A stretch of 61,796 nt of DNA from a virus (IMGVR_UViG_3300046171_000163:1-61796); one strand, 5' to 3'. Shown: positions 3,100-58,758, counted from the stretch's first letter. The notes: generated by a model not told the origin, from the letters alone. A program made the numbers and translations.

Positions 3100-4117
3100 G
3101 TTTGCATCAGGTAAATACGCTAAAGCTATTTCAGACCGAAGCGGTATGGAGTTTCCATATAATGAAATGGTAAAAGAATGGAATGGTTCTTTTGTACATA
3201 GGTCAGAGTTTGAATCAAAACATCCACAACTAGAACCAAGAGCTCATTATGGTGATGCTCAAGGTTTACAAAATGCAAGACCTGCTAGAACAGAACCACC
3301 TGTAGCACATCTTTTAGCAGAGGATTCTATGGCAGCAGGACCGGTAGATTCTATTTTAGTTACAGTAAATCAACCGGCGCACGGATATAGCACCGGGGAC
3401 CGCGTTAGATTTAGAGGAGCAGACCCACACTTTCCAGACTATCCACAAGTGGCTAGAGTCGATGCAGATAATATAAATGATGCTAGAGGACACTTGGTTA
3501 CAAAAGTTGATGACAATAATTATACTTTTAGTCCTAATGATTTAGTAGAACAGTTTTTAACTGACAACTGTGTTCCAGGAACTACAACTGTTTATGTAGA
3601 CATGGACGGAGTGCAAACAGAGTACTATCAAAAAGTTGCTTCTTACCTACAGTCTGTCGGACAACTTCCTCTTGGTGAATGGTACGACATGACTCCAGCT
3701 GATGAACTAGCAGCTATTGCATCTATTCCTGGTACTCCTGGTTGGTTTGCAGCTTTAGATAAAAGAGCAGAAGCTGACGCATTAGTTGATCTAGTAATTG
3801 CTAAAAATGGTAGTTGGGATGTATTAACTACAGATGCCGGCACAACTGGTAACGCAGCAAAACTATCTTGGGTAACTACAAATTTTGGTACTCCTGGATC
3901 AGGTGTAGGCAGGGCTCCAGCAACTTTTACAGCCGCAGCAAACTTTAATAAAGGAGTTTACGGAGGCCCTAACAAACTACTAATTGATGATAGAACAGAT
4001 TATGTTAATCAATTTGTAAATGCTGGAGGTAAAGCCTTTAAATATTATGAAAGTGGTGGTATAAGAAACTTTGGAGGGACAGGAAAATCAGTAGGACCTG
4101 TTACATTATTACCATGA
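3092..4117 (+). CDS. Structural protein with FCCH-like beta domain and inserted HAD-family 5'-nucleotidase-like domain
   Basis: N-terminal ASGKYAKAISDRSG..FPY; VTV...HGYSTGDRVRF; HAD motifs VYVDMDGV and LLIDDR; C-terminal GG...VGPVTL. Confidence 0.6.
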   Translation: MSKFASGKYAKAISDRSGMEFPYNEMVKEWNGSFVHRSEFESKHPQLEPRAHYGDAQGLQNARPARTEPPVAHLLAEDSMAAGPVDSILVTVNQPAHGYSTGDRVRFRGADPHFPDYPQVARVDADNINDARGHLVTKVDDNNYTFSPNDLVEQFLTDNCVPGTTTVYVDMDGVQTEYYQKVASYLQSVGQLPLGEWYDMTPADELAAIASIPGTPGWFAALDKRAEADALVDLVIAKNGSWDVLTTDAGTTGNAAKLSWVTTNFGTPGSGVGRAPATFTAAANFNKGVYGGPNKLLIDDRTDYVNQFVNAGGKAFKYYESGGIRNFGGTGKSVGPVTLLP

Positions 4118-4812
4118 CCACATACGCAGAATTAGTAACACAAATTAGAGATTATTCAGAGACAGATAGTGCTGTTTTAACTACAACTATTATTAATGAT
4201 ATTATTGCAAATGCAGAAGACAAAATATTTAGAAATATAGAATTAGATTGTTTTAAAGAATACATCAGCGGTAATACAGCTGCTAATAACAGATTTGTAA
4301 GTTTACCGGGACAAACTACTTCTGCTACTACACCTACAATTAGTGATATTGCAACAATCAGATATGTGACTCTTTATACTAACTCAGGTACGAAAGAAAG
4401 ATCTGAGCTTGTAAGAGTAGATGTTGATTTTTTAAATGAATACTATCCAACCCCAGAAGTAGGTTCAACTGCTAAGCCTAGATACTATGCGACTTGGGAT
4501 ATGGGTAAAATAGCTATTGCGCCTACACCAAATGCGGTGTATAAATTTGAGATTGGTATTACTAAAAAACCTACAGGCTTAAGTTCTAGTAATACGACTA
4601 CATGGGTCAGCGTCAATGCTGAACGTGCTTTATTATATGCCTGCATGGTTGAGACTTTTAAATTTTTAAAAGCACCACAAGATCAACAAGTTTACGAGCA
4701 AGCTTATGCTACAGCTGTACAAGAGCTGGCTCAAGAACAGTTGGGTAAAAAACGAAGAGACGAATATAGAGATGGAAGTTTACGGATTAAAGTTCCTTCT
4801 CAAAACCCTTAA
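4114..4812 (+). CDS. Neck/tail adaptor protein
   Basis: MTTYAELVTQIRDY..., PRYYA.W...IAPTP, LLYAC.VE, RRDEYRDG motifs. Confidence 0.6.
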   Translation: MTTYAELVTQIRDYSETDSAVLTTTIINDIIANAEDKIFRNIELDCFKEYISGNTAANNRFVSLPGQTTSATTPTISDIATIRYVTLYTNSGTKERSELVRVDVDFLNEYYPTPEVGSTAKPRYYATWDMGKIAIAPTPNAVYKFEIGITKKPTGLSSSNTTTWVSVNAERALLYACMVETFKFLKAPQDQQVYEQAYATAVQELAQEQLGKKRRDEYRDGSLRIKVPSQNP

Positions 4813-4824
4813 TAGGAGAAAATT

Positions 4825-5271: not shown

Positions 5272-5280
5272 GGAGTTTAA

Positions 5281-8810: not shown

Positions 8811-8811
8811 T

Positions 8812-9559: not shown

Positions 9560-10555
9560 ATGGCAACATATGAATCGAGACGTTATAATACTCCGGTACC
9601 TGACGCTAGTAAGATTGCTGACGGTTCAGTAAACAATACTGAGTTTCAACATCTAGACGGCGTTACATCAGACATACAAAGTCAGTTTACTGGTAAGCTT
9701 CCACTTGCCGGTGGAACGATGACCGGGGATTTAAACTTTGGTGACAACGTAGATATAAATGTTGGGGCTGGTACAGATCTAAAAATTCTACACGATGGTT
9801 CTAATAGCACTATTAAGAATGACACAGGTGCATTAATTATTAATGCTAATACTTTACAACTTAAAAACAATGCAAACGATGAAACGCTAGCAACTTTTGC
9901 TAACGGGGGCGCAGTAAATCTTCGTTTTAATGACGGTACAAAACTAGAAACTACAAACACTGGTGTAAATGTTACCGGGGAACTTGGAGCAACTGGAAAT
10001 ATTACAGCTAGTGGAAATGTAAATGGTAATGGGCAAAACCTTACAAATATAAACGGATCAAACATTTCATCCGGTACTGTAGCTGACGCAAGAATATCAA
10101 CTTTAACTGCAAGTAAATTAACAGGAGCTTTACCTGCAATCGATGGATCAAATTTAACAGGCATTGATTCAATTCCTAGTAGTTCTACAGCTGTAGGGGC
10201 TATAAAATATTTTGCTCTTTATTACGATGGTTCTGGTACTGATAGTAATACTAGTATAGGTGTCGGGACTGAAGTTGTTCCATCCACATATAATTCTAGT
10301 AATAAATATTTATCCAGTTCTGTAGAATATAACAACAGCGCTAGTTCCTCTGGACCACAAGACACAAGTAGTCTTGGTTATCTGGTTCCAGGGTTTTCTG
10401 GAACCTCTGGCGGTGTATCAGGTAAAACTAGAGCAACTGAATCAGGAACTTGGAGATGTATATCACAAGCTATTTATAATAAATTTACCACTTCAGGAAA
10501 CAGCGGTGGAACTTATACTATTTCTGGCGCCGGATTATTTCAGAGGATATCATAA
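9560..10555 (+). CDS. Tail fibre protein
   Basis: LPLAGGTMTG.L.FGDN...DL.I.HDG module shared with the 5281 fibre. Confidence 0.7.
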   Translation: MATYESRRYNTPVPDASKIADGSVNNTEFQHLDGVTSDIQSQFTGKLPLAGGTMTGDLNFGDNVDINVGAGTDLKILHDGSNSTIKNDTGALIINANTLQLKNNANDETLATFANGGAVNLRFNDGTKLETTNTGVNVTGELGATGNITASGNVNGNGQNLTNINGSNISSGTVADARISTLTASKLTGALPAIDGSNLTGIDSIPSSSTAVGAIKYFALYYDGSGTDSNTSIGVGTEVVPSTYNSSNKYLSSSVEYNNSASSSGPQDTSSLGYLVPGFSGTSGGVSGKTRATESGTWRCISQAIYNKFTTSGNSGGTYTISGAGLFQRIS

Positions 10556-12080: not shown

Positions 12081-13918
12081 CATTAATTAAAGCACAATTT
12101 CAACCAGGCATCGATAAGCAAACTTCTACCTATGGCGCAGAAGGTAAATGGGTTGACTCTAAAAATGTTAGATTTAGAACAGGTCTACCAGAAAAAATTG
12201 GTGGTTGGGAAAAAGTTGTTAATAAATATATTGCTGGTGTGGTTAGAGGCGTTAAAGCATGGGTGTCAAACACAGGTGTGCGTTACATAGCTTTAGGAAC
12301 AGATAGAAAACTATATGTTTATTCCGAAGGTATTTTTTTCGATATTACTCCTTTGCGTAGAGACAATGTAGGACTAACTAATCCTTTTACAACTACTTCT
12401 GGTTCTTCAACAGTTACAGTTGCAGACAACAGTCACGGTTTTGCAGTTGGTGATTTTGTAATATTTAAAAACTTTTCAGCTGTTGGCGGTCTTGATATGA
12501 ACAATGAGTTTGAAGTCAAGTCTGTTGTTAATACTAATTCGTTTACAGTGCAACACACCTCAAATGCTACCGGTTCTGTATCAGGCGGAGGAGGTTCAGG
12601 AAATTTAGATGGTTTAATACCTGTTGGAACTAATGTTTCTACATTTGGTTTTGGTTGGGGTGTAGGTGCTTGGCAAGGAACTGGCCGAGCTTGGAACACA
12701 CCAAGTTCTACTTCTACTGTAGCGTTGGATGCTACTTACTGGTCATTAGATACGTTTGGTGAAGATTTATTAGCGATTCGTAATAATGATAAGTTGTATC
12801 GTTGGGATTTATCAGCGGGCACCGGAACGCGGGCCGCGGCTGTTGCAGGTGCACCAGAAAGAAGTCGTTTGACCTTAGTGTCTTCTCCTGACCGACATAT
12901 ATTTTTATTTGGTACAGAGGTAACAATTGGAAATGCAACTACACAAGATGATTTATTTTTAAGGTTTTCTTCACAAGAAGATTTTAATACATGGGCTCCA
13001 GCAAGTACAAATACTGCTGGTACTTTTAGGATACAAGACGGCTCTAAAATTATGTCTGCAGTTAGGTCTAGAGGATCTATTCTTGTGTGGACAGATACAG
13101 CATTACACTCGCTTAATAATATCGGTCCACCTTTTATTTTTGGTCTAAGTCAAATTGGAGCAAACTGTGGAGCGGTGTCACCTAATTCAGTAGTTGATGT
13201 TAATGGTGTAACTTTCTGGATGTCACAAACAGCTTTCTATATGTTTGATGGTGCAATTAAAAAACTACCTTGCACTGTTCAAGATTTTGTATTTGATGAT
13301 ATTGATGGTACTGCACAAGGGCAAGTAGCTGCAGCAGTTAACACTGATTTTAATGAAGTAACTTGGTTTTATCCGACTAACAATTCTAACTTTTTAAATA
13401 AATCAGTTACGTATAATTATTTAGAAAACGTTTGGTATACTAATGATGGGTTTGCTAGAACAGGTTGGATCGATCGTGGTGTTTATAGTGCGCCTTATGC
13501 ACCCTGTTATAAACCAACTGTTTTACCTAACAATGAAGTTATCATGGGTGTTACTGCTGGGTCTAGTATACTATATGCACATGAAGCAGGTTTTAATGAT
13601 GACGGTGCAGCGATGGAATGTGAAATAACTAGTGGTGACTTTGACATACAAGAAGGCGACGAAGTATTTTTATGTAATAGAGTATTGCCTGATTTTAAAA
13701 CACTTACTGGTAATGCTGATGTTAGAGTTAGGTTTGCTAATTACCCTGCAAGTACAAACACCAGAGATTTTACATCAACAATAACAGACACGACTAAATT
13801 CTTCTCTGTCAGAGGCAGAGGACGACAAGCAAATCTTAAAATTAGTGCTGATGCTGTTAATGATAACTGGAGATTTGGAACTATACGAATGGACATTAAA
13901 CCGGATGGCAGAAGATAA
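12077..13918 (+). CDS. Tail nozzle/DNA stabilisation protein (P22 gp10 / tail tubular B-like)
   Basis: PGIDK....Y..EG.W.D..NVRFR.G.PEKIGGW N-terminus, beta-propeller-like body, ends D.KPDGRR. Confidence 0.7.
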   Translation: MTLIKAQFQPGIDKQTSTYGAEGKWVDSKNVRFRTGLPEKIGGWEKVVNKYIAGVVRGVKAWVSNTGVRYIALGTDRKLYVYSEGIFFDITPLRRDNVGLTNPFTTTSGSSTVTVADNSHGFAVGDFVIFKNFSAVGGLDMNNEFEVKSVVNTNSFTVQHTSNATGSVSGGGGSGNLDGLIPVGTNVSTFGFGWGVGAWQGTGRAWNTPSSTSTVALDATYWSLDTFGEDLLAIRNNDKLYRWDLSAGTGTRAAAVAGAPERSRLTLVSSPDRHIFLFGTEVTIGNATTQDDLFLRFSSQEDFNTWAPASTNTAGTFRIQDGSKIMSAVRSRGSILVWTDTALHSLNNIGPPFIFGLSQIGANCGAVSPNSVVDVNGVTFWMSQTAFYMFDGAIKKLPCTVQDFVFDDIDGTAQGQVAAAVNTDFNEVTWFYPTNNSNFLNKSVTYNYLENVWYTNDGFARTGWIDRGVYSAPYAPCYKPTVLPNNEVIMGVTAGSSILYAHEAGFNDDGAAMECEITSGDFDIQEGDEVFLCNRVLPDFKTLTGNADVRVRFANYPASTNTRDFTSTITDTTKFFSVRGRGRQANLKISADAVNDNWRFGTIRMDIKPDGRR

Positions 13919-18704: not shown

Positions 18705-21700
18705 ATGTCTATAATACCAACATTAATAAAAGGTGTTAAAGGCGCTAGTAAACTTAAAAGTATTTTAATTAAAGCCGAAAAAACAGATAGAAGAAAACCT
18801 GGTAATCTTGGTCTAGACACAAAACTAAAAGCTATTGCCTACAAATTTAAAAACCCTTACGCTACAACGGATGAAGTAGCAGATAAATTTAAACTTGCTC
18901 ATGGTTCTGCAGGTAATTATATAAAAGACGCCGGCTTATCTACTCCAATTGTTGGTTTAAAGAAAAAAACAAAAGATGAGATACAACAGGTAATAAAGGG
19001 ATTTAAACAATACAAAAAAGAATTTGGCAAAAACCCATCTAAAGATCAACTTTCTACATATCTTGGTTTTGAAAAAATTGGTGGTGCTAGTAAAATTAGT
19101 AGACTAACAGATTATATAAAAAAAGCTGGAGTAAAAGACCCTTTTAAAAATTTAAAATTTAAACTAGGAACAGCAACTAGAGATGGTAAGTATAAAAGGT
19201 CAGACATAATAGAATTTAAAGATATAAAAAAACAAGAATTTTATAATGATCCAAACATACCTAAAGAAGTAAAAGACATAAGAAGAAGAATAGATAAAAC
19301 TACTAGAAAATGGAATAAGGCAAACCCTCTTGATAAAAGAGTATTAGACCATATTGATAATTACTGGAACGCTGCATCAAAAGAAGTGCCTTATGAAGAT
19401 ATAGCTAATTGGCAAATTATTGGTAAAAAAATTAATGGGGTTAAAGCTGCTTTATATGAAAACACTAAAACAGGAGCTAAACATTTAAGCAATAAATTAA
19501 AAAATGCAAAAGGCAAAGAAGAGAGACTAGCTATACAGAAGTTATTTGAAGAGCAAATGACAAAACATATGAATATAGTTGATAGAGGTGACGTTATATT
19601 AAAGCTTAAAGGAATAGATGGGATACCTAATAAATTTGCTCGTTATGCAGAAAAAAACACTAAAGAATTTTTTAACACCATGGATCCTATGGAAAGACTA
19701 ACTTCACAATTAGATGAAATGGACATGATTCTTGAAGCAGGAGTAACTCCACAAATTAGTCCTGGCATGATGAATGTTGTTAAGTCTGTTAAGGCAGCAG
19801 GTTTTGAAGAAGGAGGTCGTGTTGGTTATGCTGACGGCTCTGGACCAGAAGGGGTGCAGCCTTTAGACTTTGATCAGTTTTTAAAAATTAACGAAACAGA
19901 ACACGGATTAGTTGGTAAAGATTTAATTGACGAATCTATTAAAGATTTTTTTAGATCTAGAAAAGACAGAAAGAAATTTCTTTCTGGCGGAGCTGTATCA
20001 ATAGATGGCGGTGGCGTAGGATCATCTGTCGACAATCAAGTAGGAATGTTTCAATCAGTATTATCTGGAATAGGTGCAGGTATAATTGATATACCTAAAG
20101 GTGCATTTAGTTTAGGAGCAAGTTTAATGGACTTGGGATTAGGAACAAGTCATGCAGCAAGTGTAGAAAAATTTTTTGATGATCTAACTACGTTAGATGA
20201 AAAAGCAGAAGCAACAACTGCTGGTAAGATTACTCGTATCATGACTAACTTAGGTATTCCCGGAACATATGCGTTTAAAACAGCCGCAGGATTATCAAAG
20301 AAAGCTTTACTAGCAAAAAAAGCTGGAACGTATTGGAAGCCTACTAAAAACGCTGCAGGAGAATTAGAAAAAACATTAACTAATAAAGGTCGTATGTTGA
20401 CAACTCTTGGTGGTGTAGGTGGTGTTGGAGCAAGTGATGCTATTTTTGTAGGTGACGCAGAACAAGTTGGAACACTTGGTGACGCGTTTAACATAGGAAT
20501 AACGCAACTTGCTGACAACGACGAGAACAACGCAGCGCGGACCGTAATGAACAGAGTCAAGTTTGGTATAGACTCAGCATTTCTAGGTGGCGTTATTGGT
20601 GGAACGGGGACCGCTATTAAACAAGCAGTAAAGAGAAGTAATAAATTAAATCGTAACAATGATTTTATAGATAAAATATTAGAGTACACTACTCCACAAG
20701 GAAGGAAAGACTAAAGAATTTTTTGAAATGGAACGTGAATTAATTGGTAAACGTTCTGCAGACGCTAATCGTATTCAAGAGCTACATAGGCAATTAGATA
20801 AAAACATAGACGCACTGTATCCTTTTGTATCAAGAATAAGTGGTGTTGGAGTGCAAAAAGAAAGAGATGCTATGGTTAAAGTAATAAACAACGCTTTAAC
20901 TTCAGGTAAGCCAAACGTTAAAGAAGTTGTAGACGAAGCTGGAGAAAAGGTTGCTCAGTTTACTCTTGGCGACATGGACGCAAAAGCATTATCTGAACTT
21001 AGAAAATTAAAACTAAAAGATCCTGAAGAAGTTATTAAAATACTGCAGCAGTCTAGAAAAATTATGGATAATTCTTTTACTGCTATTGGAAGCAATATTC
21101 TTAAATCAGGGACTGCTACTAAAGAAGCTGCTGACGCTACCCTAGAGCGTTTTGGTAAATTTAAAACTGCGTTTGAAACAAAATCTTTAGATTGGATAAA
21201 TGACACTTATCAAATATATGGAAACAAAAGCAGTGACGCCTTAAAAGGCTTTAGACCTGCTGATGAAGCTATTACTAATGCAAAAGAATTGTTTAAACAA
21301 TTATCTTTAAAAAGAACTGGTAAAGCTATGAGTGATGAAGACGCTGCTTATGAAGTAGAACGTATTTTAGAAAGCACTAAAAAAACTATGTCTAAGTCGC
21401 CTAACAAAGCATTGTCTTCTGAAGCAGAAGGTGTACCGTTTATAAAAGATGAAACAGGGTTTTTAAAAGACACTGCGATTTCTGACTGGACTAAAGAATA
21501 TTTGCCATTAAACAAATTAGCAAAAGATGAACTTACAGGTTCTCTAACAGGCCTAACTCCTAAAAATATCATGGATGATTTACTTGGTAAGGTAAATGAT
21601 CCTAGTGCAACAATATTAAACTCTATGTCTAAACTTTCTTTAATTAGACGTAAGTACGAATTCTTTGATGATTTAAGTAGTACTATGATGGGTAAACAGT

Positions 21701-26137: not shown

Positions 26138-26598
26138 TGAACTTATCAAACAACTTTACATTAGCAGAGCTAACTAAATCTCAAACAGCGGTACGTAAGA
26201 ATATTAATAATGAACCGGGGACCGCGGAGATTGAAAATCTTATTCACCTAGCGAAGACTGTCTTACAACCAGTGCGCGAGCATTTTGGTAAACCAGTCAT
26301 GATATCCTCAGGCTACAGAAGCCCAGAGCTGTGCGAGGCTATCGGGTCTTCGGCTAAGTCACAGCATGCCAAGGGTGAGGCAGCAGACTTTGAGATTAAT
26401 GGAGTTGACAACAAGGAACTTGCATCGTGGATTAGTAAAAACTGTGACTTTGATCAATTGATACTAGAGTTCTATGATGGTGTTGATCCCAATTCAGGGT
26501 GGGTTCATTGCTCAGCATCCATGTCAAGATCAAGAAAACAAACATTGAAGGCAGAAAAAGTAGAAGGAAGAACGTCGTACGTTCCAATTCTTTTTTAG
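26137..26598 (+). CDS. Endolysin, peptidase M15A family
   Basis: LS.NFTL.EL..S, ISSGYRS, SQH..G.AAD, DQLILE, WVH motifs. Confidence 0.85.
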   Translation: MNLSNNFTLAELTKSQTAVRKNINNEPGTAEIENLIHLAKTVLQPVREHFGKPVMISSGYRSPELCEAIGSSAKSQHAKGEAADFEINGVDNKELASWISKNCDFDQLILEFYDGVDPNSGWVHCSASMSRSRKQTLKAEKVEGRTSYVPILF

Positions 26599-28043
26599 AT
26601 CCAGTTCTTAAGATCTTCTCCCATAATTTCATTTGCTATATTTACCTTTGTCCTTAATGCTTTTACAATACGTTCATCTATAGTACCTTCTGCAATTAAA
26701 TCTATGTACAATACACTGCCAGTCTGGCCGATGCGGTGCGCTCTATCTTCTGATTGTAGTCTTTTTTCTAGGTCATATGAGTTAGAAAAGTAAATTACTG
26801 TATTTGCGGCCGTAAGGGTAATTCCGTACCCTCCAGTTTGTGCATTTCCTACGAAATAGCGTGTAGGGCCCTTTTCTTGCTGAAACTGAGCAATGTGCTC
26901 CTGGCGAAGGGTAGCATCCACCCCACCGTGATATTCGACTGTAGAGGCTTCTCCGTAAGCTTTTTTTAAAGATTCGACTATTTTTTTGATGTCCTCACGG
27001 TAAGTTGCCCATATTATGACCTTGCCGTCAGTTTCTTCTAGACAATCCATTAAAGCCTGTATTCGATTGTTAGGAAGATGTTTTACTGTACCATCGTCAG
27101 CTTTAAACGTACCACAAGTGACTTGATGCAACCGCATCAACTGTGTCATAACATTTACTGTTGACATAACTTTGCCATCTTCTGTAAATGCCAACGCCGT
27201 TTCTTTTAGTTGCGCGTATATTTCTTTTTGCTCTTTAGATAATTCTACAATACGTTTAGTAAATACTTTTTCTGGTAGATCTAAGCAGTCTTCTTTCAAC
27301 ACACGATAAGAAAAATCATCTAGCTTATCTCCAAGTTCATCTAGTCTTCTATAACTAGTAACTAATTGCACTGAACGACCGCCAAAATTTCTCTTGACCA
27401 TATTTGCATAACGTGCACGAAAACTGTAATAAGAGTTGTGGCCTAATAGCCAAGGGTCCAGGAATTCACATTGACTATATAAGTCAAGCGGAGACTTGGT
27501 TACGGGAGAGCCTGTCAATATTCTACGGTACTTCGCGAGTTCCCCAATGGTTAAAATATTTTTTGTTCGCTTTGCTGTCGGACTCTTGATCGTCGTAGAT
27601 TCGTCAATTCCTATTAAAGCTCTTCCAAGAAAGATGTTAAGGAAACTATGCGCAAAGTCCAGACCTTTCGACGTAGAAAAAGCTTCTACGTTCATTATCA
27701 GTATCTTAAGTTCTTCTTTACCATCAAATAATGTATCTAACTCAGTCTGTTTTTTCTTAGTTATGTTTGCTTCCCACAATACTTTTGTGTGTTCGACATG
27801 GTCTGGTAGATGTACAGGAAATTCTATTTGGTCCCAATTCTTGTAAACACCTTTAGGTGCCACTATTAGTGCACCGCGGATCGCGCCATTGTCGTATAAC
27901 ATAGCAATGTTATCCACAAGTACTTTAGATTTGCCGGTACCCATTTCCATGAATAAAGCGTAGTTTTTCTGCGCCCACGACTTTTTTAAAGCCTTTAATT
28001 GATGGGCATAAGGCTTGGTTTTATACCTATATGTATCTATCAT
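26595..28043 (-). CDS. SNF2-family (SF2) helicase
   Basis: PY.HQ, MEMGTGKS, IDES, LTGSP, GG.G.TLT.A, QSEDRAHRIGQ. Confidence 0.9.
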   Translation of the reverse strand: MIDTYRYKTKPYAHQLKALKKSWAQKNYALFMEMGTGKSKVLVDNIAMLYDNGAIRGALIVAPKGVYKNWDQIEFPVHLPDHVEHTKVLWEANITKKKQTELDTLFDGKEELKILIMNVEAFSTSKGLDFAHSFLNIFLGRALIGIDESTTIKSPTAKRTKNILTIGELAKYRRILTGSPVTKSPLDLYSQCEFLDPWLLGHNSYYSFRARYANMVKRNFGGRSVQLVTSYRRLDELGDKLDDFSYRVLKEDCLDLPEKVFTKRIVELSKEQKEIYAQLKETALAFTEDGKVMSTVNVMTQLMRLHQVTCGTFKADDGTVKHLPNNRIQALMDCLEETDGKVIIWATYREDIKKIVESLKKAYGEASTVEYHGGVDATLRQEHIAQFQQEKGPTRYFVGNAQTGGYGITLTAANTVIYFSNSYDLEKRLQSEDRAHRIGQTGSVLYIDLIAEGTIDERIVKALRTKVNIANEIMGEDLKNWI

Positions 28044-37024: not shown

Positions 37025-37227
37025 AGTGGGTACCAGAAACACCTGAAGAGGCAATGTCTTCAGTTGATCTACCAACGTGCACCGTGGATCGCCTTTGTAA
37101 AAAACTGTATGGCCATACTAACTGGGCAAGAATGGGTGCGGTTACTCCGGACGAACTTCTAAGAAACCCACACAGCTTTGATTTTGATGAAGGGATAGTT
37201 TATTTCAAGCAAGCAAGATTGGTATGA
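37000..37227 (+). CDS. Hypothetical protein
   Basis: 75-aa ORF coupled to the next gene. Confidence 0.4.
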   Translation: MLTEEFEIEWVPETPEEAMSSVDLPTCTVDRLCKKLYGHTNWARMGAVTPDELLRNPHSFDFDEGIVYFKQARLV

Positions 37228-39876: not shown

Positions 39877-40628
39877 CAGAAATTATTCCTACAAAATATG
39901 ATCGGCATTATCTTACAATCACGTATCTTCTCATTACGTTTTTTACATTAGGTTGGGTATGGCAATACATCTGGAACTTAGATCCACGATTAATCATTAC
40001 ATACATATTAGCTGTTCTGGTAGGAACACTAGGAACAAATGTTGGCTACCATCGATTGTTTACTCATAAAGCATTTCGCACGTCAAAGTTTTGGTATAAC
40101 TTTTTAGCTTTCTTTGGTGTGTATGGTACAGTTGCAGGTCCGGTAGGCTGGGTCGCGACGCACTTACACCATCACCGGCATCTTGGAACAGACATGGATC
40201 CACATACACCGTGGACCGAGGACAGCTGGTTTGTAGGCTGGCTAAGAACGTTTCTACCGTATTGGATGAACATACCGGAACCAGACCTAAAGTTGTTGGT
40301 GGGTGTTAGGCATCTGCTAGCTAATAAGTTTATTATGTTCTTGCATAAGTGGGCACCAATACAGGTCTACGGAACGGGGATCGTGATTTGGTTGTTGTTT
40401 GGTTTTGACTGGTTCTTACTGGCGTTTTGTTTCCCTATTGGTTACTCATTGATTAGTCAGTTTTTTGTTAACTGGTTTCACTACGACATTGACTTTGTAC
40501 ATAAAAATCGTAAATGGATAAATATAGTTATTGGTGGCGAAGGCAATCACAAAGAACACCACGAGCGACCACGTGATTATTCCAATGACTACCCAATAAA
40601 ATATTTTATAGACTGGATTAAGACATGA
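39873..40628 (+). CDS. Membrane fatty acid desaturase (delta-9-like)
   Basis: His boxes HRLFTH, HLHHH + DPHTP, HKEHH; TM helices. Confidence 0.85.
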   Translation: MTEIIPTKYDRHYLTITYLLITFFTLGWVWQYIWNLDPRLIITYILAVLVGTLGTNVGYHRLFTHKAFRTSKFWYNFLAFFGVYGTVAGPVGWVATHLHHHRHLGTDMDPHTPWTEDSWFVGWLRTFLPYWMNIPEPDLKLLVGVRHLLANKFIMFLHKWAPIQVYGTGIVIWLLFGFDWFLLAFCFPIGYSLISQFFVNWFHYDIDFVHKNRKWINIVIGGEGNHKEHHERPRDYSNDYPIKYFIDWIKT

Positions 40629-41365
40629 CTTGGTATCAAAAGTTCCCACAATATTATATTTCACTATGTTACATAGTTAGTGTTGCGTTATTTTTTACGT
40701 TTATATGGAATTATCTTGATTATAGGCTCATTTTGACGTGGCTGGTGTTACAATTCTTAGGTATGGTGGGCATAAACATGGCTTATCATCACCTGGTGAC
40801 GCATAAATCGTACAAAACGAACTGGTTTTGGAAGATAATACTAACATATTTTGGTGGTATCGCGACACAATCAAGTCCGAATGAGTGGGCATTGGTGCAC
40901 TTAACACACCACCGATACACTGACACGGAGCAGGACCCACATACACCTAATCTATCCGGCAATAAAATTATGGGAGTGCTGCGCGCGGCGCTGCCAATGT
41001 TTATGAACATCACGATAACAGATACGAAGGTTAATTTGATGGCGAAAAAAAGTTTTGATGACCCTATCTATCGGTTCTTTGACTATACCCATATGTTATG
41101 GTTTCATGGAACGTGGATCGGGATTTATTATTTATTTGGTTTTGATTGGCTTATGATAGCGTTTGTATTTCCGGTGGCGTTGTGTCATATCGGAGAAACT
41201 GTCATTAATTGTTTTCATTTTGATATGGATTCTGTCAGACGCCATGCCTGGTTTTGGAACATGTTGATTGTTGGTGCGGGATACCATGCTAAACATCACG
41301 ATACTCCAAGAGATTACACTACAGACTGGCCAGTGAGTAAAATTATTGATATGATAAAGACATGA
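40625..41365 (+). CDS. Second membrane fatty acid desaturase
   Basis: His boxes HHLVTH, HLTHH + DPHTP, HAKHH. Confidence 0.85.
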   Translation: MTWYQKFPQYYISLCYIVSVALFFTFIWNYLDYRLILTWLVLQFLGMVGINMAYHHLVTHKSYKTNWFWKIILTYFGGIATQSSPNEWALVHLTHHRYTDTEQDPHTPNLSGNKIMGVLRAALPMFMNITITDTKVNLMAKKSFDDPIYRFFDYTHMLWFHGTWIGIYYLFGFDWLMIAFVFPVALCHIGETVINCFHFDMDSVRRHAWFWNMLIVGAGYHAKHHDTPRDYTTDWPVSKIIDMIKT

Positions 41366-41700: not shown

Positions 41701-42399
41701 ATGGATTTAATAAATGTACAAAAATATGATTATCCGAATTCTACTCGCTCCATTCATAAGGGTAGCAGACATTATACTATTGCAGATGTTCTTCAAGGAC
41801 AGCCTCTTCCATCGGTCACTAGCATTTTGTCAGCGACTCAAGAAAAAGATAAAGCAGCTAGCCTGCAAAGGTGGCGAGATCGTGTCGGACATGCTAAAGC
41901 GGCTGAAATAACAAAGACTAGCGCAGCGCGCGGCACGGCAATGCATCTCTATCTAGAGAAATATTGTCTTGGTGAGGGCTACATGGACCTGACGGACCTT
42001 GGAATAGAAGCCAAGAAGATGGCAGAAAAGATCGTGGACCGCGGGATTGATAATAGGATCGACGAGGTGTACGGGAATGAAGCGACACTATACTATCCAG
42101 GACTATATGCAGGTAGCTGTGATCTTATTGCAAGATTAGATGGTGATCTATCAATCATAGATTTCAAACAGAGCAATAAACCAAAACAGAAAGAATGGAT
42201 TAAAGACTATGAGCTGCAAATGGCGGGCTATGCGATGGCTCATGATGCAGTTTACGGCACAAATATTGATAAATGTGTCAATATGGTATGTACTCCTGAC
42301 CTATATTATCAAGAATTTACGATTTCAGGTGACGAACTACGCGAAGCCAAGTATGAATGGTTAAGAAGAGTTGACCTATTTTACAGTGAAAGGGATTAA
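41701..42399 (+). CDS. PD-(D/E)xK exonuclease (Cas4/MGME1-like)
   Basis: LPSVT.IL, RGT.MH..LE, E..L....YAG..D, IIDFK, Y.LQ..GYA. Confidence 0.8.
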   Translation: MDLINVQKYDYPNSTRSIHKGSRHYTIADVLQGQPLPSVTSILSATQEKDKAASLQRWRDRVGHAKAAEITKTSAARGTAMHLYLEKYCLGEGYMDLTDLGIEAKKMAEKIVDRGIDNRIDEVYGNEATLYYPGLYAGSCDLIARLDGDLSIIDFKQSNKPKQKEWIKDYELQMAGYAMAHDAVYGTNIDKCVNMVCTPDLYYQEFTISGDELREAKYEWLRRVDLFYSERD

Positions 42400-47282: not shown

Positions 47283-47807
47283 ATGGGCGTACCTAAAAAA
47301 CTTACAGAAATGCAAATGAAATTTGCGCAGTTGTTGGTAAACAACGAAGGACGTATGACACAAACAGAGTGTGCTAAAGAGGCTGGTTATGCTGAAGGCA
47401 CTGAAGCAGTCAAAGGTTCTGAGCTTACTAACCCTAATAAATATCCTTTAGTTGCTAAATATATTGGCGAGCTACGAGAAGAGAACCAGAAAAAATATTC
47501 AGTTACATTTGAGAAACACATAACAGAGCTAGCTAAGATAAGAGAAGCAGCATTAAACAAAGGAGCATTTAGTGCAGCAGCAAACGCAGAAGTTGCTAGA
47601 GGTAAAGCTGCAGGACTATACATCGAACAAAAAATAATCAGAACAGGTAAATTAGAGGACATGTCTATTGAAGAATTAGAAAGTAAAATGAAAAAGATTT
47701 ATGAAGAGAACAAAGTTTTAGTTGAAGGTGAGTACACTGTTTTAGCTAATGATAATTTAGAATACAACGGAGTTAAGCTTAAGGATGTTTTAGATGAAGA
47801 AGAGTAA
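47283..47807 (+). CDS. terS: Terminase small subunit
   Basis: LTE.Q.KFA...V......T.TECA..AGY...S.L...P.V..YI; AE..RGKA.GLY. Confidence 0.75.
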   Translation: MGVPKKLTEMQMKFAQLLVNNEGRMTQTECAKEAGYAEGTEAVKGSELTNPNKYPLVAKYIGELREENQKKYSVTFEKHITELAKIREAALNKGAFSAAANAEVARGKAAGLYIEQKIIRTGKLEDMSIEELESKMKKIYEENKVLVEGEYTVLANDNLEYNGVKLKDVLDEEE

Positions 47808-48825: not shown

Positions 48826-49209
48826 GTGAAAAATGAGTCGAAACTCTGGCAAAAACTAAAAAAATCTACACCAAATATTACATGGACACGCGTTGAATCT
48901 TGGGCATCTTTTGGCTTTCCTGACCTAGTAGGATACACGGAAAACACTGGCTTTTTTACTGTTGAGTTAAAGATAGTAAAAAGTAATAAAATTACCTTCT
49001 CACCACACCAAATTGCGTTCCACGTGAAACACCCAACCAACACCTGGATCTTGGCAGCGACCCTCGATCCACGCACCAATAAACTTTATGAATACTATCT
49101 CGAGCCGGGGTCCAAGGTCCGCGAGCTTGCGGCCGACGGCTTGCGTGCTTGCGGGCCCACCCGCCCCGCCTGTGAGCTTGAGCGCTTGTTGCTTGAGGCT
49201 TGTGCCTGA
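48826..49209 (+). CDS. VRR-NUC-like PD-(D/E)xK nuclease (possible resolvase)
   Basis: ESKLW..LK, TR.E....G.PD......F.VELK, SP.Q..FH. Confidence 0.7.
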   Translation: MKNESKLWQKLKKSTPNITWTRVESWASFGFPDLVGYTENTGFFTVELKIVKSNKITFSPHQIAFHVKHPTNTWILAATLDPRTNKLYEYYLEPGSKVRELAADGLRACGPTRPACELERLLLEACA

Positions 49210-53596: not shown

Positions 53597-55063
53597 ATGC
53601 TAACCCCAGAACAAGTTAAACAATTACCGCCTGATACCAGGAAAGAATATCTTAAGACAATGCTTCTTCTTGAAGAGAAAAAGAAGGAACAAAATATTAG
53701 AGATGATTTCTTAACTTTTGTAAAACATCTATGGCCAGATTTTATTGAAGGTGATCATCATAAAATTATGGCAGAAAAATTTAATCAGGTTGCTAATGGT
53801 GATCTAAAAAGATTAATTATTAATATGGCGCCAAGACATACTAAGTCTGAGTTTGCATCCAACTTTCTACCTGCATGGATGATTGGAAACAATCCTAAGT
53901 TAAAAATAATCCAAGCCACGAACAACGCTGAGTTAGCCGTGAGGTTTGGTCGTAAGGCTAAAGGTCTTATGGAGCAGGCAGAGTACCAAGAGATATTTGA
54001 CACTAGACTTAAAGAAGATTCAAAAGCCGCCGGTAAATGGGAAACGGACCAGGGCGGAGAATATTATGCCGCGGGTGTTGGTGGATCAATCACGGGCCGT
54101 GGAGCGGACTTACTTATTATTGATGACCCACATTCCGAACAGGACGCAATGAACATGGCCAGTTATGATAGAGTTTATGAGTGGTACACATCTGGACCTC
54201 GTCAGAGGTTACAACCTGGCGGCAGAATAATAGTAGTGATGACTCGTTGGAATGTTGCTGATTTAACCGGTAAGCTGATAAAAGGACAAGCAGAACCAAA
54301 AGCAGACCAATGGGAAGTAATCGAGTTCCCAGCAATACTTCCAAGCGGGAAACCGGTTTGGCCTGGTTATTGGAAGCTAGAAGAGCTTGAAGCGGTAAAA
54401 GCATCCGTGAGTATACTAAAATGGAACGCACAATACCAACAAAATCCGACAGCAGCAGAAGGTAGTATTATCAAAAGGGATTGGTGGCAATTGTATGATA
54501 AGCCAGAACCACCGGCACTATTACATGTAATTCAGTCTTATGATACGGCGTTTATGAAAAAAGAAACGGCTGACTACAGCGCCATTACGACTTGGGGAGT
54601 TTTTCATCCAAATGAAGGCGACGCACCTAATTTAATATTATTGGACATGGTCAAGGATAGATACGAGTTTCCAGAGTTACGTAAGAAAGCTAAAGAACAA
54701 TATGACTACTGGAAGCCCGAAACGGTGATCGTGGAGGCTAAAGCTTCAGGCTTGCCTTTAACGTACGAATTACGTAAACTAGGGATACCAGTTATTAACT
54801 TTACACCGAGTAAAGGAAATGATAAACATACAAGGATAAACTCTGTAGCTCCTTTGTTTGAGGCTGGAATGATTTGGGCACCAGACAAAAAGTTTGCAGA
54901 AGAGGTTATTGAGGAATGCGCTGCATTTCCATTAGGTGAACATGACGACTTAGTGGATAGTATGACTCAAGCCGTAATGAGATTTAGACAAGGTGGCTTT
55001 GTCGAGCATCCCGATGATTACGAGGATGAACCATTGCCGGAACACGCGAGGACGTACTATTAA
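53597..55063 (+). CDS. terL: Terminase large subunit
   Basis: RLIINM.PRHTKS, ITGRGADL.IIDDP, MTRW, QYQQ.P, S.DTA, E.KASG, FP...HDD.VD. Confidence 0.95.
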   Translation: MLTPEQVKQLPPDTRKEYLKTMLLLEEKKKEQNIRDDFLTFVKHLWPDFIEGDHHKIMAEKFNQVANGDLKRLIINMAPRHTKSEFASNFLPAWMIGNNPKLKIIQATNNAELAVRFGRKAKGLMEQAEYQEIFDTRLKEDSKAAGKWETDQGGEYYAAGVGGSITGRGADLLIIDDPHSEQDAMNMASYDRVYEWYTSGPRQRLQPGGRIIVVMTRWNVADLTGKLIKGQAEPKADQWEVIEFPAILPSGKPVWPGYWKLEELEAVKASVSILKWNAQYQQNPTAAEGSIIKRDWWQLYDKPEPPALLHVIQSYDTAFMKKETADYSAITTWGVFHPNEGDAPNLILLDMVKDRYEFPELRKKAKEQYDYWKPETVIVEAKASGLPLTYELRKLGIPVINFTPSKGNDKHTRINSVAPLFEAGMIWAPDKKFAEEVIEECAAFPLGEHDDLVDSMTQAVMRFRQGGFVEHPDDYEDEPLPEHARTYY

Positions 55064-55707: not shown

Positions 55708-55724
55708 TTTAACGAGGTAATAAT

Positions 55725-58214: not shown

Positions 58215-58215
58215 T

Positions 58216-58758
58216 ATGAGAGAATCCGACATCATAGCACCACTTGGACTTATGTCTATTATGGGTATGTTGGCTGGAGACAAAAAATCTAATTTGTTGC
58301 AAGAACAAATAGAGGCTTACCAAAAAGAACAAGAGGAAGCAAAGAACAAAAAAGAACAAGAGATTCCTGTTGTTGAAGAAGATGATTCTCCTGAACTAAC
58401 TGTGTCAAATTTATCAAAGTATTTTAAACCAGGAATACAGGACGACAGTCTTAAAGAAACTAGTGACGCATTAAGTTCAGCTTTTAATATTGGACCAGAA
58501 TTATTCGGCTTTAATGTTATGCAATCTCTTTTTCCACAATTAAGTATAGCTGATGCAACTACTAAAGGTGGACTAGAAAACTTAGACGATTTTATTGAGA
58601 TGGATGGTGATCCAATGGGAACAGCTTTATATTTAAGTAAAGGAACAACTATACCTGGACTAGAAAACGAAATTTTTGGCTATAACCAGGGCGGCCTAGT
58701 ACCACCGCTACGCGGACCGATGTCAAGTGGTATAGGTACATTATACAAACTTAAATAA
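58216..58758 (+). CDS. Hypothetical protein
   Basis: Ends YNQGGLVPPLRGPMSSGIGTLY. Confidence 0.5.
   Translation: MRESDIIAPLGLMSIMGMLAGDKKSNLLQEQIEAYQKEQEEAKNKKEQEIPVVEEDDSPELTVSNLSKYFKPGIQDDSLKETSDALSSAFNIGPELFGFNVMQSLFPQLSIADATTKGGLENLDDFIEMDGDPMGTALYLSKGTTIPGLENEIFGYNQGGLVPPLRGPMSSGIGTLYKLK

What the first reader, a model, noticed from the sequence alone, without database searches (positions are those of the whole stretch)
3394..58719. Genome-wide, strand-polarised 9-mer CG[CGT]GGA[CT]CG embedded in coding DNA
Seen: exact + strand copies at 3394, 11138, 17365, 20536, 20605, 26216, 27875, 31423, 37083, 40210, 40375, 41112, 42033, 57183 and 58711 (15 by eye), with near-copies at 12828 and 32893. 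They fall in unrelated genes and encode different peptides. The 27875 copy keeps + orientation inside a minus-strand gene, so protein coding does not explain it. Many extend with a 7-nt period (e.g. GGAA-CGTGGAT-CGCGGGT around 57183). The only reverse copy I found is at 49065, beside the GC-rich early region. A rough base-composition estimate for this AT-rich genome expects well under one copy per strand. Inference: a directional cis-signal analogous to Chi or KOPS, guiding DNA ejection, packaging, primase/helicase loading or nuclease protection.
Basis: partly seen in the sequence, partly recalled or inferred. Interest (0 to 1): 0.8.

Follow-up and report, generated by a model that had tools for sequence, protein, structure and literature searches.

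The report
One-strand DNA word tied to phage packaging
An abundant type of marine phage has written a short GC-rich DNA word about twenty times into one strand of its genome by its choice of synonymous codons, and the same 7-letter unit forms repeat arrays beside the DNA-packaging genes of its distant relatives, so it is most likely a directional signal for the packaging machinery.

Summary
CGBGGAYCG occurs 15 times on + and once on − in this complete 61.8-kb phage genome (0.21 expected). It survives synonymous-codon shuffling. It occupies 14 of the 61 places where the proteins allow it on +, against 1 of 35 on −.

The 9-mer is the core of two to four tandem 7-bp units (GSANCGN-GGAYCGN). Polarity and enrichment persist, at graded density, in related HTVC023P-type marine phage contigs, but individual sites turn over.

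It is not a host Chi in the genomes tested: five Pelagibacter genomes hold 1 copy in 6.2 Mb. Placement near gene starts did not replicate.

A gene-blind scan of viral contigs for heptad arrays returned loci carrying this phage's TerS, TerL and an adjacent Hjc/VRR-NUC nuclease in 52, 51 and 42 of 119 cases. A backwards-read control gave 5, 7 and 3. Arrays usually sit just upstream of TerS or TerL.

Best reading (about 0.4): a packaging-machinery recognition unit, dispersed and oriented genome-wide in this lineage. Strand-specific nick motifs (phages tf, T5) are the closest known phenocopy. No nick, binding or terminus could be tested.

The parts
3394..3402 (+). strict copy CGGGGACCG in gene 3092-4117 (two-unit element spans 3390-3403)
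9717..9725 (+). near-copy (TGGAACGATGACCGGGG), 14.9 bits
11138..11146 (+). strict copy in gene 10555-11298
12828..12836 (+). near-copy (CGGAACGCGGGCCGCGG), 20.6 bits
17365..17373 (+). strict copy in gene 16131-17423; highest-scoring site
20536..20544 (+). strict copy in gene 18705-20714
20605..20613 (+). strict copy in gene 18705-20714
26216..26224 (+). strict copy in the endolysin/peptidase gene 26137-26598; kept in 5 related loci
27875..27883 (+). strict + copy inside the - strand SNF2-type helicase gene; the peptide A-I-R-G-A is unchanged while motif-less clades use common synonymous codons; realised in 9 of 16 loci at this place
31423..31431 (+). strict copy in the AEP primase gene; appears and disappears among relatives through two synonymous third positions
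32886..32909 (+). near-copy, four heptads (GAAACGT GCACCGC GGATCAC GGATTGT) in the UvrD-type helicase gene; third codon positions unusually conserved in all relatives (top 0.5% of windows)
37083..37091 (+). strict copy lying in none of the ORFs I listed (no ORF of 80 aa or more)
40210..40218 (+). strict copy in the desaturase-like gene 39873-40628
40375..40383 (+). strict copy in gene 39873-40628 (residue 168 of 251; a copy lies at a similar place, residue 163 of 246, in the neighbouring gene, 41112)
41112..41120 (+). strict copy in gene 40625-41365
42033..42041 (+). strict copy in the exonuclease gene 41701-42399
54723..54731 (+). near-copy inside TerL (CGAAACGGTGATCGTGG), 15.2 bits
57183..57191 (+). 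strict copy in the portal gene; three heptads GGAACGT GGATCGC GGGTCAT
58711..58719 (+). strict copy in gene 58216-58758
49046..49120 (-). the only - strand cluster: a three-unit array GGTGCGT GGATCGA GGGTCGC (strict copy 49065-49073) plus weaker units around 49100-49120. It lies inside the 3' half of gene X. It is orthologous to the - copy in L129, and an array lies at about the same place and on the same strand inside the X gene of L406. Candidate primary site.
47283..47807 (+). small terminase subunit (TerS) with N-terminal HTH-like matches; candidate reader of the heptads (inferred)
48826..49209 (+). gene X: Hjc/VRR-NUC-type PD-(D/E)xK nuclease; follows TerS directly in 41 of 42 array-bearing loci; holds the window's - strand array
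53597..55063 (+). large terminase subunit (TerL); its family co-occurs with heptad arrays in 51 of 119 pattern-selected loci, against 7 of 119 controls

Best explanation
The 9-mer is the core of a 14-17 bp element built from two (sometimes three or four) tandem 7-bp units, G-S-A-N-C-G-N followed by G-G-A-Y-C-G-N.

This 7-bp unit is a cis-element of the phage's DNA-packaging module. In distant members of the same terminase family it forms clustered arrays of 3 to 17 units immediately upstream of TerS or TerL. It is therefore most likely the word recognised when packaging starts, a pac-type iteron. The probable reader is the HTH small terminase, possibly working with the neighbouring Hjc/VRR-NUC nuclease.

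In the window's lineage one short array remains beside the terminase module (49.05-49.12 kb, - strand). In addition, two-unit copies have been written by synonymous codon choice into about a quarter of all places on the + strand where the proteins permit them.

I infer that these dispersed, co-oriented copies act during headful packaging as secondary recognition sites. They would mark phage DNA as self (the word is virtually absent from Pelagibacter genomes) and engage the terminase in one direction only. Engagement may leave a strand-specific nick, as seen in phages tf, T5 and phiKMV.

Shown: the enrichment, the polarity, the heptad architecture, the synonymous-codon origin, the turnover of sites, and the statistical linkage of the arrays to the terminase genes. 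Inferred: who binds the word, and what the dispersed copies do.
For: Enrichment and polarity:
- 15 copies on + and 1 on -, against 0.21 expected.
- Synonymous shuffles give 1.1-1.2 per strand.
- 14 of 61 encodable + places are used, against 1 of 35 on -.

Architecture:
- Flanks are conserved and the units stand in 7-nt register.
- Relatives show 4-unit arrays and copies 7 or 14 nt apart.

Relatives:
- 74+/1- in 80 primase-centred loci.
- 25 distinct site clusters, 10 of them absent from the window.
- Whole contigs of other clades hold 4/0, 3/0, 6/1, 0/0 and 1/0, with 0 for the backwards control.

Independence from gene direction: the + copy in the - strand helicase gene is kept in 9 of 16 loci.

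Link to packaging:
- A pattern-only scan for three heptads found arrays of up to 17 units.
- Of 119 such loci, 52 carry TerS, 51 TerL and 42 X, against 5, 7 and 3 of 119 loci found with the backwards pattern. Fisher p values are 1e-13 to 1e-11.
- Arrays lie 161-528 nt (21 loci) or 1090-1418 nt (12 loci) upstream of the TerL start, out of 50 loci.
- The order is arrays-TerS-TerL in 15 loci and TerS-arrays-TerL in 14, out of 31.
- The window's - array lies inside X at about the same place and on the same strand as the array in L406.
- Distant complete genomes keep the word almost only in the array.

Private to the phage: 1 copy in five Pelagibacter genomes.

Precedent: the SPP1 pac site consists of sets of direct repeats at the start of the terS gene (PMC4737164, passages read).
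Against: - No binding, cleavage, terminus or nick could be tested. The only raw-read runs offered do not contain the phage.
- Array orientation relative to TerL is not fixed among relatives (33 opposite, 17 same). This fits poorly with a signal that sets the direction of packaging.
- The window's candidate primary array is inverted relative to the dispersed copies.
- In solved TerS rings neighbouring HTH motifs are about one helical turn apart, not 7 bp, and the SF6 DNA-binding domain showed little sequence specificity (PMC4737164).
- Position upstream of the first late genes is also where late promoters or operators sit, so linkage to the terminase genes does not prove a packaging role.
- I know of no described phage with many oriented pac-like units spread over its genome (recall; the one literature search on pac repeats, showed none among the 12 listed titles and abstracts).
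- The cultured relatives HTVC023P and HTVC027P have only 1 and 0 copies.
Confidence: 0.4

Rival explanations
1. Programmed strand-specific nick sites. The motif is the recognition sequence of a phage nicking activity, and virion DNA carries a single-strand interruption at each copy, as in phages tf, Rembedalsseter and other LUZ24-like phages, phiKMV-like phages and T5. This overlaps the best explanation if the terminase module does the nicking.
For: The statistical signature is nearly identical.
- tf has 14 copies of the 9-mer TACTRTGMC, all on the top strand and all nicked, despite two convergent transcription units. Single-mismatch variants lie on the same strand (PMC3517423, passages read).
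- Rembedalsseter has 13 copies of WACTRTGAC on one strand, 0.7 expected. The enrichment is shared by 61 related phages and the copies lie inside and outside genes (PMC11780129, passages read).
- Here: 15/1 copies against 0.21 expected, near-copies on the same strand, uneven distribution, and independence from gene direction.
- A small PD-(D/E)xK nuclease, X, sits in the terminase module.
Against: - No nick was observed or could be observed: there were no raw reads of the phage, and contig ends are not near motif sites (2 of 128 ends within 100 nt).
- Arrays of up to 17 tandem units beside terminase genes are not a feature of described nick motifs.
- X matches junction-resolving enzymes by fold, not known nickases.
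- No HNH or other nickase candidate was found among the roughly 55 window ORFs scanned.
Confidence: 0.2
2. Binding sites of a phage transcription regulator. The arrays upstream of TerS or TerL would be the operator or enhancer of the late operon, and the dispersed two-unit copies would be phage-specific middle or late promoters or activator sites.
For: - Arrays sit just upstream of the first late genes.
- In the window, realised sites are closer to the next + gene start than unrealised encodable places (median 250 against 727 nt, p=0.018).
- 27875 lies 244 nt upstream of the first gene of the replication module.
- Sigma70-like TTGACA boxes were seen at three of five intergenic GGGCCCACCC copies at 49-53.4 kb. 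I did not scan the long + block for promoters.
- The outgroup phage YuA uses a phage-specific promoter motif at nine mapped start sites (PMC10914365, passages read).
Against: - The placement signal does not replicate in relatives: 23 realised against 203 never-realised places, median 861 against 650 nt, p=0.71.
- Many sites lie 1.5-2 kb from the next gene start.
- Individual sites are not positionally conserved.
- No conserved -10-like element follows the motif.
- YuA's own motif is unrelated, and the motif-like 8-mer CGGGATCG seen in two YuA promoter fragments shows no polarity in YuA (7 on + and 7 on -).
- The fit to the sigma54 -24/-12 rule is poor: GG in 6 of 16 and C at -12 in 8 of 16 (consensus recalled).
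Confidence: 0.15
3. Replication signal. The heptad arrays are origin iterons bound by the phage initiator (the AEP primase or a partner). The dispersed oriented copies are lagging-strand priming or helicase-loading sites for forks that move in the direction of most genes.
For: - Polarity is independent of gene strand.
- Spacing of 0.07-6.5 kb is compatible with Okazaki-size intervals.
- The phage encodes its own AEP primase with a PriCT domain, a UvrD-type helicase and a family A polymerase.
- Short iterons bound by primase-type initiators, and sequence-specific AEP priming, are known (recalled: P4 alpha, NrS-1; not checked here).
Against: - The arrays travel with the terminase genes, not the replication genes. 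In the 119 pattern-selected loci the primase is present in 4, the helicase in 6 and the polymerase in 9, against 51-52 for the terminase genes.
- Relatives with a 72%-identical primase have 0-1 copies.
- A 12.7-kb stretch has no + copy.
Confidence: 0.1
4. Host recombination or nuclease-control signal (Chi-like), or a host translocase-orienting sequence (KOPS-like), borrowed by the phage.
For: Strong strand polarity and a density of about one copy per 3-4 kb resemble Chi in bacterial genomes (recalled). The host of this particular phage is unknown, so an untested host could carry the word.
Against: - Five Pelagibacter genomes (6.2 Mb) hold 1 copy, against 45 of the backwards control.
- The Polaribacter MAG that holds a related contig has 2 copies in 2.2 Mb, one of them on that contig.
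- The word is tied to phage terminase genes across genomes of 39-62% GC.
- Its 14-17 bp two-unit footprint is longer than known Chi or KOPS words (recalled).
Confidence: 0.03

Closest known systems
Nick-associated strand-specific motifs of Pseudomonas phages tf, Rembedalsseter and other LUZ24-like phages (TACTRTGMC / WACTRTGAC), of phiKMV-like phages and of T5/BF23
   Same: A 9-mer with one or two degenerate positions. 13-15 copies in a 45-60 kb genome against fewer than 1 expected. All or nearly all copies on one strand whatever the gene direction. Near-variants on the same strand. Enrichment shared by relatives with little nucleotide similarity. Uneven distribution along the genome. Function still unknown in the described cases (PMC3517423, PMC11780129, PMC10644984; passages read).
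   Different: No nick has been shown here. The word is built of tandem 7-bp units and forms long arrays beside the terminase genes in relatives, which is not described for nick motifs. It is GC-rich in an AT-rich genome. The phage family is different (HTVC023P-type marine phages).
pac sites of headful-packaging phages (SPP1/SF6 boxA-C direct repeats; P1 hexamer repeats and P22 pac, both recalled)
   Same: Clusters of short direct repeats at the head of the terminase genes. A small terminase with an N-terminal HTH is encoded nearby. In SPP1 the site overlaps the terS promoter and the start of the gene (PMC4737164).
   Different: Known pac sites are single loci. Here two-unit copies are spread over about 50 kb on one strand. 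The period is 7 bp, against about 10.5 bp between HTH motifs in TerS rings. Array orientation varies among relatives. No cleavage site or terminus is known.
Chi (RecBCD/AddAB) and KOPS/SRS (FtsK/SpoIIIE) polar sequences
   Same: Over-represented, strongly strand-polarised short words embedded in coding DNA and read by a machine that tracks along DNA. This is the same logic as I propose for a packaging motor.
   Different: Those are host-genome words read by host enzymes. This word is nearly absent from the host genomes tested and travels with phage terminase genes.
Heptad operators of the ribbon-helix-helix omega repressor of plasmid pSM19035; heptamer arrays next to the T7 terminal repeats
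   Same: 7-bp units in tandem arrays. For omega, at least two adjacent units are needed, and unit orientation matters. For T7, the heptamer arrays lie next to the packaging ends.
   Different: The sequences are unrelated. I did not look for a ribbon-helix-helix protein. Those arrays are local, not genome-wide.

Membership tests
Nick-associated strand-specific phage motifs (tf/LUZ24-like, phiKMV-like, T5-like) | Short consensus present many-fold above chance | tested here: met
   16 copies against 0.21 expected; 14 of 61 encodable + places used
Nick-associated strand-specific phage motifs (tf/LUZ24-like, phiKMV-like, T5-like) | Copies confined to one strand regardless of gene direction, near-variants included | tested here: met
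   15 on + and 1 on -; matrix hits 21 and 4; + copy inside a - gene kept in relatives
Nick-associated strand-specific phage motifs (tf/LUZ24-like, phiKMV-like, T5-like) | Enrichment shared by related phages | tested here: met
   74+/1- in 80 loci; whole contigs 4/0, 3/0 and 6/1, but 0/0 and 1/0 in the 72% clade; HTVC027P has 0 and HTVC023P has 1
Nick-associated strand-specific phage motifs (tf/LUZ24-like, phiKMV-like, T5-like) | A ligatable single-strand break at the motif in virion DNA | not testable with these tools
   The two raw-read runs laid held 8 partial reads each at 90-95% likeness, so the phage is not in them. Contig ends are uninformative.
pac site / small-terminase recognition repeats | Cluster of direct repeats at or in the terminase genes | tested here: met
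   Met in distant relatives: arrays 161-528 or 1090-1418 nt upstream of TerL in 33 of 50 loci; next to TerS or TerL in 29 of 31; association 51 against 7 of 119. In the window there is only a 3-unit array, 1.2 kb beyond TerS and inside gene X.
pac site / small-terminase recognition repeats | One site per genome | tested here: not met
   About 20 dispersed + copies besides the - array
pac site / small-terminase recognition repeats | Bound by TerS; the first packaging cut is nearby | not testable with these tools
   No binding assay and no read-end data
Chi-like host recombination signal | Highly frequent and skewed in the host genome | tested here: not met
   1 copy in five Pelagibacter genomes against 45 for the control; 2 copies in a 2.2-Mb Polaribacter MAG. 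The true host is unknown.
KOPS/SRS-type translocase-orienting sequence | Read by an FtsK/SpoIIIE-type translocase; polarity switches at a defined terminus | tested here: inconclusive
   No FtsK-like protein among the ORFs scanned. The polarity switch lies somewhere within 42-54.7 kb.
Sigma54 (-24/-12) promoter | Near-invariant GG and GC spaced 10 nt apart (consensus recalled) | tested here: not met
   When aligned to the motif, GG is present in 6 of 16 copies and C at -12 in 8 of 16, while the invariant GGA falls in the 'spacer'. Placement near gene starts did not replicate.
YuA-type phage-specific promoter | Conserved motif at mapped start sites in intergenic regions | tested here: not met
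   YuA's annotated repeat (CTTTACTTCTTCGG...CACTATAC) is unrelated. Here only 1 of 16 copies lies outside the listed ORFs.
Hjc/VRR-NUC PD-(D/E)xK nucleases (for gene X, 48826-49209) | E...PD...ExK catalytic residues and the resolvase fold | tested here: met
   Invariant E24, D33, E47, K49 and Q62 in 26 sequences. The profile hits 4qbo at E=0.006 with these residues aligned. Pfam VRR_NUC matches 7 of 26 members and Hjc 4 of 26. The model has pLDDT 90.4. Best Foldseek match: Hjc 2wcz, E=2e-4, probability 1.0. No nuclease activity was tested.

The most novel reading that the evidence does not exclude
The dispersed heptad pairs are a genome-wide, oriented 'self' code for a viral packaging motor, a KOPS-like system for a terminase. 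There would be many co-oriented loading or engagement sites, written into coding DNA by synonymous codons. They would let the headful motor start or re-engage only on phage DNA and always in one direction, with the ancestral single pac array still visible beside the terminase genes. Programmed strand-specific nicks of other phages might then be a by-product of the same kind of terminase engagement.
Probability: 0.2. Interest if true: 0.85.

Novelty: new variant of a known kind. Interest (0 to 1): 0.72.

Why it matters
[quoted passage not shown] Almost nothing is known about how they replicate, express or package their DNA.

This finding gives a concrete, testable cis-element and three candidate protein partners (TerS, the Hjc/VRR-NUC nuclease X, TerL). 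It also gives a clear evolutionary series from a local repeat array to a genome-wide polarised word.

If the link to packaging holds, it would be the first case I know of in which a packaging signal is distributed and oriented along a whole phage genome. It might also explain the 50-year-old puzzle of strand-specific nick motifs.

Practically, the word is a compact marker for recognising this terminase lineage and for orienting fragmentary metagenomic contigs.

Tried and rejected
1. Read-level test for nicks or termini. Raw-read runs X22 and X23 gave 8 partial reads each at 90-95% likeness, so they do not hold this phage. RNA runs X15 and X16 are low-depth contigs that cannot show starts. No conclusion.

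2. Contig ends as a proxy for breaks. 2 of 128 ends lie within 100 nt of a motif, against 3.6% for random positions. Uninformative.

3. Codon-phase bias as a protein or translation effect. Rejected: the phases used follow the numbers of encodable places.

4. Promoter placement. The signal in the window (p=0.018) was not reproduced on 226 distinct places in relatives (p=0.71).

5. Gene-sense against genome-sense orientation. Minus-strand ORFs offer only 13 and 16 distinct places (0 and 1 realised). Too few to decide.

6. Sigma54 resemblance and YuA. Two of three YuA sigma54-type fragments contain ACGGGATCG. However, YuA shows no polarity (CGGGATCG 7 on + and 7 on -, about 2 expected per strand). 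Dropped.

7. Equivalent polar words in HTVC023P (GGAACTGC, 13/0) and HTVC027P (CAAGCACAA, 8/0). These are in-frame peptide repeats, not DNA signals.

8. Host Chi. Rejected for Pelagibacter and for one Polaribacter MAG.

9. Synonymous-site conservation of single sites. Modest at 27875 (0.71 against 0.57, top 13%) and absent at 31423 and 26216.

10. Known RNA families and tRNAs: none.

11. More likely a junction-resolving accessory of packaging.

12. The 235-aa GP88-family gene next to the window's array is unrelated to the 240-aa ORF beside the arrays in L391.

13. Earlier notes of this scan: nothing for this genome or its relatives. A word search returned similar one-strand words in unrelated phages. 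I treated these as leads only.

14. Supplementary tables of PMC10914365 (YuA promoters) and of the pelagiphage papers were not available. They might list motifs or termini that bear on the promoter rival.
Full report
**What the window is.** The window is a complete single-contig phage genome of 61,796 bp and 38% GC. Nearly all genes lie on the + strand. The exceptions are an SNF2-type helicase (26595-28043) and a block at 49.4-53.0 kb. The genome encodes:
- an AEP primase, a UvrD-type helicase and a family A DNA polymerase;
- TerS, TerL and a portal protein;
- tail-fibre proteins;
- several auxiliary genes: 2OG-Fe(II) oxygenases, a Nol-like carbamoyltransferase and desaturase-like proteins.

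By TerL and primase it belongs with the HTVC023P-type marine phages. TerL is 73% identical to that of phage 023Pt_psg01, 70% to Pelagibacter phage HTVC027P, 62% to DSL-LC04 and 60% to HTVC023P. Fourteen seawater DNA runs hold 97-100% of the sampled words of a 7-kb stretch. The host of this particular phage is unknown.

CGBGGAYCG occurs at the 15 stated + positions and once on the - strand (49065-49073). Dinucleotide-preserving shuffles expect 0.21 copies.

Shuffling synonymous codons while keeping every protein gives 1.1-1.2 copies per strand. One copy per strand was untouched by construction.

A census of opportunity is the sharpest measure. The proteome allows the + strand word at 61 places by synonymous choice alone, and 14 are used. 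It allows the - strand word at 35 places, and 1 is used. The codons used (NCG, GGG, CGG, ACC) are ones I would expect to be rare in an AT-rich genome; I did not tabulate codon usage. The shared codon phase (9 of 13 copies in + genes) only reflects where the word can be encoded.

**Anatomy.** Flanks that were not part of the search pattern are conserved: T at -5, G at -4 (14 of 16), S at -3, A at -2 (14 of 16), then c-g-g after the 9-mer.

In 7-nt register every site reads as two tandem units, G-S-A-N-C-G-N and G-G-A-Y-C-G-N, often followed by a third unit beginning GG. Relatives show four-unit arrays, for example TAGACGT GGACCGG GGGCCGC GGACCGT, and strict copies 7 or 14 nt apart.

A position matrix finds 21 sites on + at 14 bits or more. 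It finds 4 on -, all between 49.0 and 50.3 kb. No + copy lies between 42033 and 54723.

**Relatives.**
- In 80 IMG/VR loci centred on the primase gene (699 kb) the strict word occurs 74 times on the gene-sense strand and once on the other. A relaxed pattern gives 136 against 0. Many of these loci are near-duplicates of each other.
- Collapsed by flank similarity there are 25 distinct + sites. Ten of them lie at places where the window has none, and they show the same upstream flank.
- Around TerL the count is 74 against 25. About 20 of the - copies are one inherited site 105 nt inside TerL. That site lacks the conserved flank. The remaining - events lie in the early block upstream of TerL, one of them orthologous to the window's 49073 copy.
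- Whole contigs of more distant clades hold 4/0 (a complete 64.7-kb genome), 3/0, 6/1, 0/0 and 1/0. A backwards-read control pattern gives 0 in all of them.
- 023Pt has 3/1, HTVC023P 1/0 and HTVC027P 0/0.

The enrichment is therefore graded across the group, and the polarity is kept.

**Sites turn over.**
- At 27875 the helicase peptide A-I-R-G-A is unchanged, while motif-less clades use common synonymous codons.
- At 31423 the word comes and goes through two third positions.
- Third-position conservation inside the motif is modestly raised at 27875 (0.71 against 0.57 in the flanks). It is not raised at 31423 or 26216.
- The near-copy at 32886-32909 is the exception, in the top 0.5% of windows. 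I cannot explain it.

Many redundant, individually dispensable sites with a conserved orientation point to a process that tracks along the DNA, not to a few fixed regulatory sites.

**What it is not.**
- It is not a peptide motif or a translation signal. The peptides differ, all three phases occur, and one conserved copy lies antisense in a - gene.
- It is not a host Chi-type word in the genomes I could reach. Five Pelagibacter genomes (6.2 Mb) contain 1 copy against 45 of the backwards control. Part of that gap may reflect CpG depletion. A Polaribacter MAG that holds a related 5-kb contig has 2 copies in 2.2 Mb.
- It is probably not a set of promoters. The window's tendency to sit 58-415 nt upstream of gene starts (p=0.018) vanished on 226 distinct places in relatives (p=0.71). 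No downstream -10-like element is conserved. The promoter motif of the outgroup phage YuA is unrelated.
- No Rfam family or tRNA is present.

**The link to packaging.** I scanned 2.9 million viral contigs with a gene-blind pattern of three heptads. This returned many contigs of 43-62% GC that carry clustered arrays of the same unit, such as (GGATCGG)n, (GGACCGT)n, (GGATCGT)n and (GGATCGC)n. Arrays reach 17 units, lie mostly outside long ORFs, and several are at contig ends.

I then ran every window protein against the 119 loci:
- TerS is present in 52, TerL in 51 and the small gene X (48826-49209) in 42.
- The next most frequent is the portal, in 21. The replication genes are present in 4-9.
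- The same pattern read backwards returned 119 loci of equal size and GC. TerL was present in 7, TerS in 5 and X in 3. Fisher p values are 1e-11 to 1e-13.

Position of the arrays:
- Among the 50 loci with TerL, the array lies 161-528 nt upstream of the TerL start in 21 and 1090-1418 nt upstream in 12.
- With TerS mapped as well, 15 loci read arrays-TerS-TerL, 14 read TerS-arrays-TerL and 2 differ.

X follows TerS directly in 41 of 42 loci. X is an Hjc/VRR-NUC-type PD-(D/E)xK nuclease:
- E24, D33, E47, K49 and Q62 are invariant.
- The profile hits PDB entry 4qbo.
- Pfam VRR_NUC matches 7 of 26 members.
- The model has pLDDT 90.4, and its best structural matches are Hjc resolvases.

I read X as a junction-resolving accessory of packaging.

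The window's only - strand array (49046-49120) lies inside X, at about the same place and on the same strand as the array in L406. In complete distant relatives the word is almost confined to the array: 5 copies in the array plus 3 elsewhere in a 51-kb genome. Genome-wide dispersal is thus a speciality of the window's lineage.

**Mechanism proposed.** The heptad is most likely the recognition unit of the packaging machinery, a pac-type iteron. This explains why the same GC-rich word persists in genomes from 39 to 62% GC.

In this lineage two-unit copies have been spread along one strand. I infer that they act during headful packaging as oriented secondary engagement sites. These would distinguish phage DNA from host DNA and keep all motors moving in one direction. 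Engagement may leave a nick.

The closest described phenomenon is the strand-specific nick motif of phages tf, Rembedalsseter, phiKMV and T5. Its numbers and strand rule match almost exactly, and its function is still unknown.

**Points against the proposal.**
- Array orientation relative to TerL varies (33 opposite, 17 same).
- The window's array is inverted relative to the dispersed copies.
- In solved TerS rings the HTH motifs are about a helical turn apart, not 7 bp, and the SF6 domain binds without clear specificity (PMC4737164).
- The position upstream of the late genes is equally the place for a late operator.
- Nothing physical (binding, cut, nick, terminus) could be tested.

I therefore put the packaging reading at about 0.4, a dedicated nick system at 0.2, a transcription regulator at 0.15, replication at 0.1 and a host signal at 0.03.

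**Novelty.** The two papers describing HTVC023P-type phages that I searched do not mention 'promoter', and PMC9599517 does not mention 'nick' either; I did not search the preprint for 'nick'. 'Motif' appears once, in another sense. The search of papers on small-terminase pac repeats showed no dispersed oriented pac units among the 12 listed titles and abstracts.

I rate it a new variant of a known kind: a strand-specific phage genome word of the nick-motif type, with a new architecture and a first statistical tie to the terminase module.

Noticed in passing
window 49154, 50868, 53261, 53358, 53400 (+ strand); also 5 copies in phage 023Pt_psg01: A second conserved word, CTTG[YG]G-GGCCCACCC, occurs five times, all intergenic in the early region. 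Three of the five copies are preceded by a TTGACA box. They look like early promoters or operators, and the complementary strand is G-tract rich (GGGTGGGTGGGCCC). The same 9-10-mer occurs five times in 023Pt.
   Followed up: partly
window 32886-32909: A four-heptad near-copy in the UvrD-type helicase gene (consensus TGCAYCGCGGAWCAYGGATT) is kept in all related loci. Its third codon positions are far more conserved than those of the flanks (0.78 against 0.53, top 0.5% of windows), even in clades that otherwise lack the motif. Unexplained.
   Followed up: partly
window 48826-49209: The PHROG family that this gene matches is labelled 'DNA helicase', but the protein is a 127-aa Hjc/VRR-NUC-type PD-(D/E)xK nuclease. 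It sits between TerS and TerL in 41 of 42 related loci, which suggests a packaging-associated junction resolvase.
   Followed up: yes
Pelagibacter genomes G007-G011: The word is almost absent from SAR11 genomes (1 copy in 6.2 Mb), while the same letters read backwards occur 45 times. This may be CpG depletion or active avoidance.
   Followed up: no
L114-L170, about 105 nt inside TerL, - strand: One clade (TerL 85-88% identical to the window's) carries a - strand strict copy at a fixed place in the 5' end of TerL. It lacks the conserved upstream flank and is present whatever the direction of the upstream genes. It is probably a by-product of coding.
   Followed up: partly
L356 (GC 0.61), last 120 nt of the locus; L348 and L373 ends: Arrays of 6 to 17 perfect heptads lie at the very ends of some loci. 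This could mark physical genome ends, or simply assembly breaks at repeats.
   Followed up: no
window 39873-40628 and 40625-41365: The first of two adjacent genes matches the fatty-acid desaturase family. Each gene carries a strict motif copy at a similar place (residues 168 of 251 and 163 of 246) in locally similar sequence (...IWLLF / ...IYYLF). I did not compare the two proteins, so paralogy is only a guess.
   Followed up: no
window 5281-7491: GGACCGACAGGACC-type words (GACCGACAG 6 copies on + and 0 on -; ACAGGACC 10 and 0) top the k-mer list. By eye they read as in-frame Gly-Pro-Thr repeats, and four bare GGAYCG hits cluster at 6865-7054 inside this tail-fibre gene. I did not locate the words themselves. 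They are not part of the motif family.
   Followed up: no
L171 (contig of a Polaribacter MAG): A 5-kb contig with a TerL 74% identical to the window's is binned in a Flavobacteriaceae MAG and carries one motif copy. This is weak evidence that some members of the group infect hosts other than SAR11.
   Followed up: partly
window 37224-37904, 47937-48608, 45189-46688: Two 2OG-Fe(II) oxygenase genes and a Nol-like carbamoyltransferase. One oxygenase gene is inserted between TerS and X. The literature on this phage group discusses such genes as possible DNA or protein modification functions (PMC9599517).
   Followed up: no
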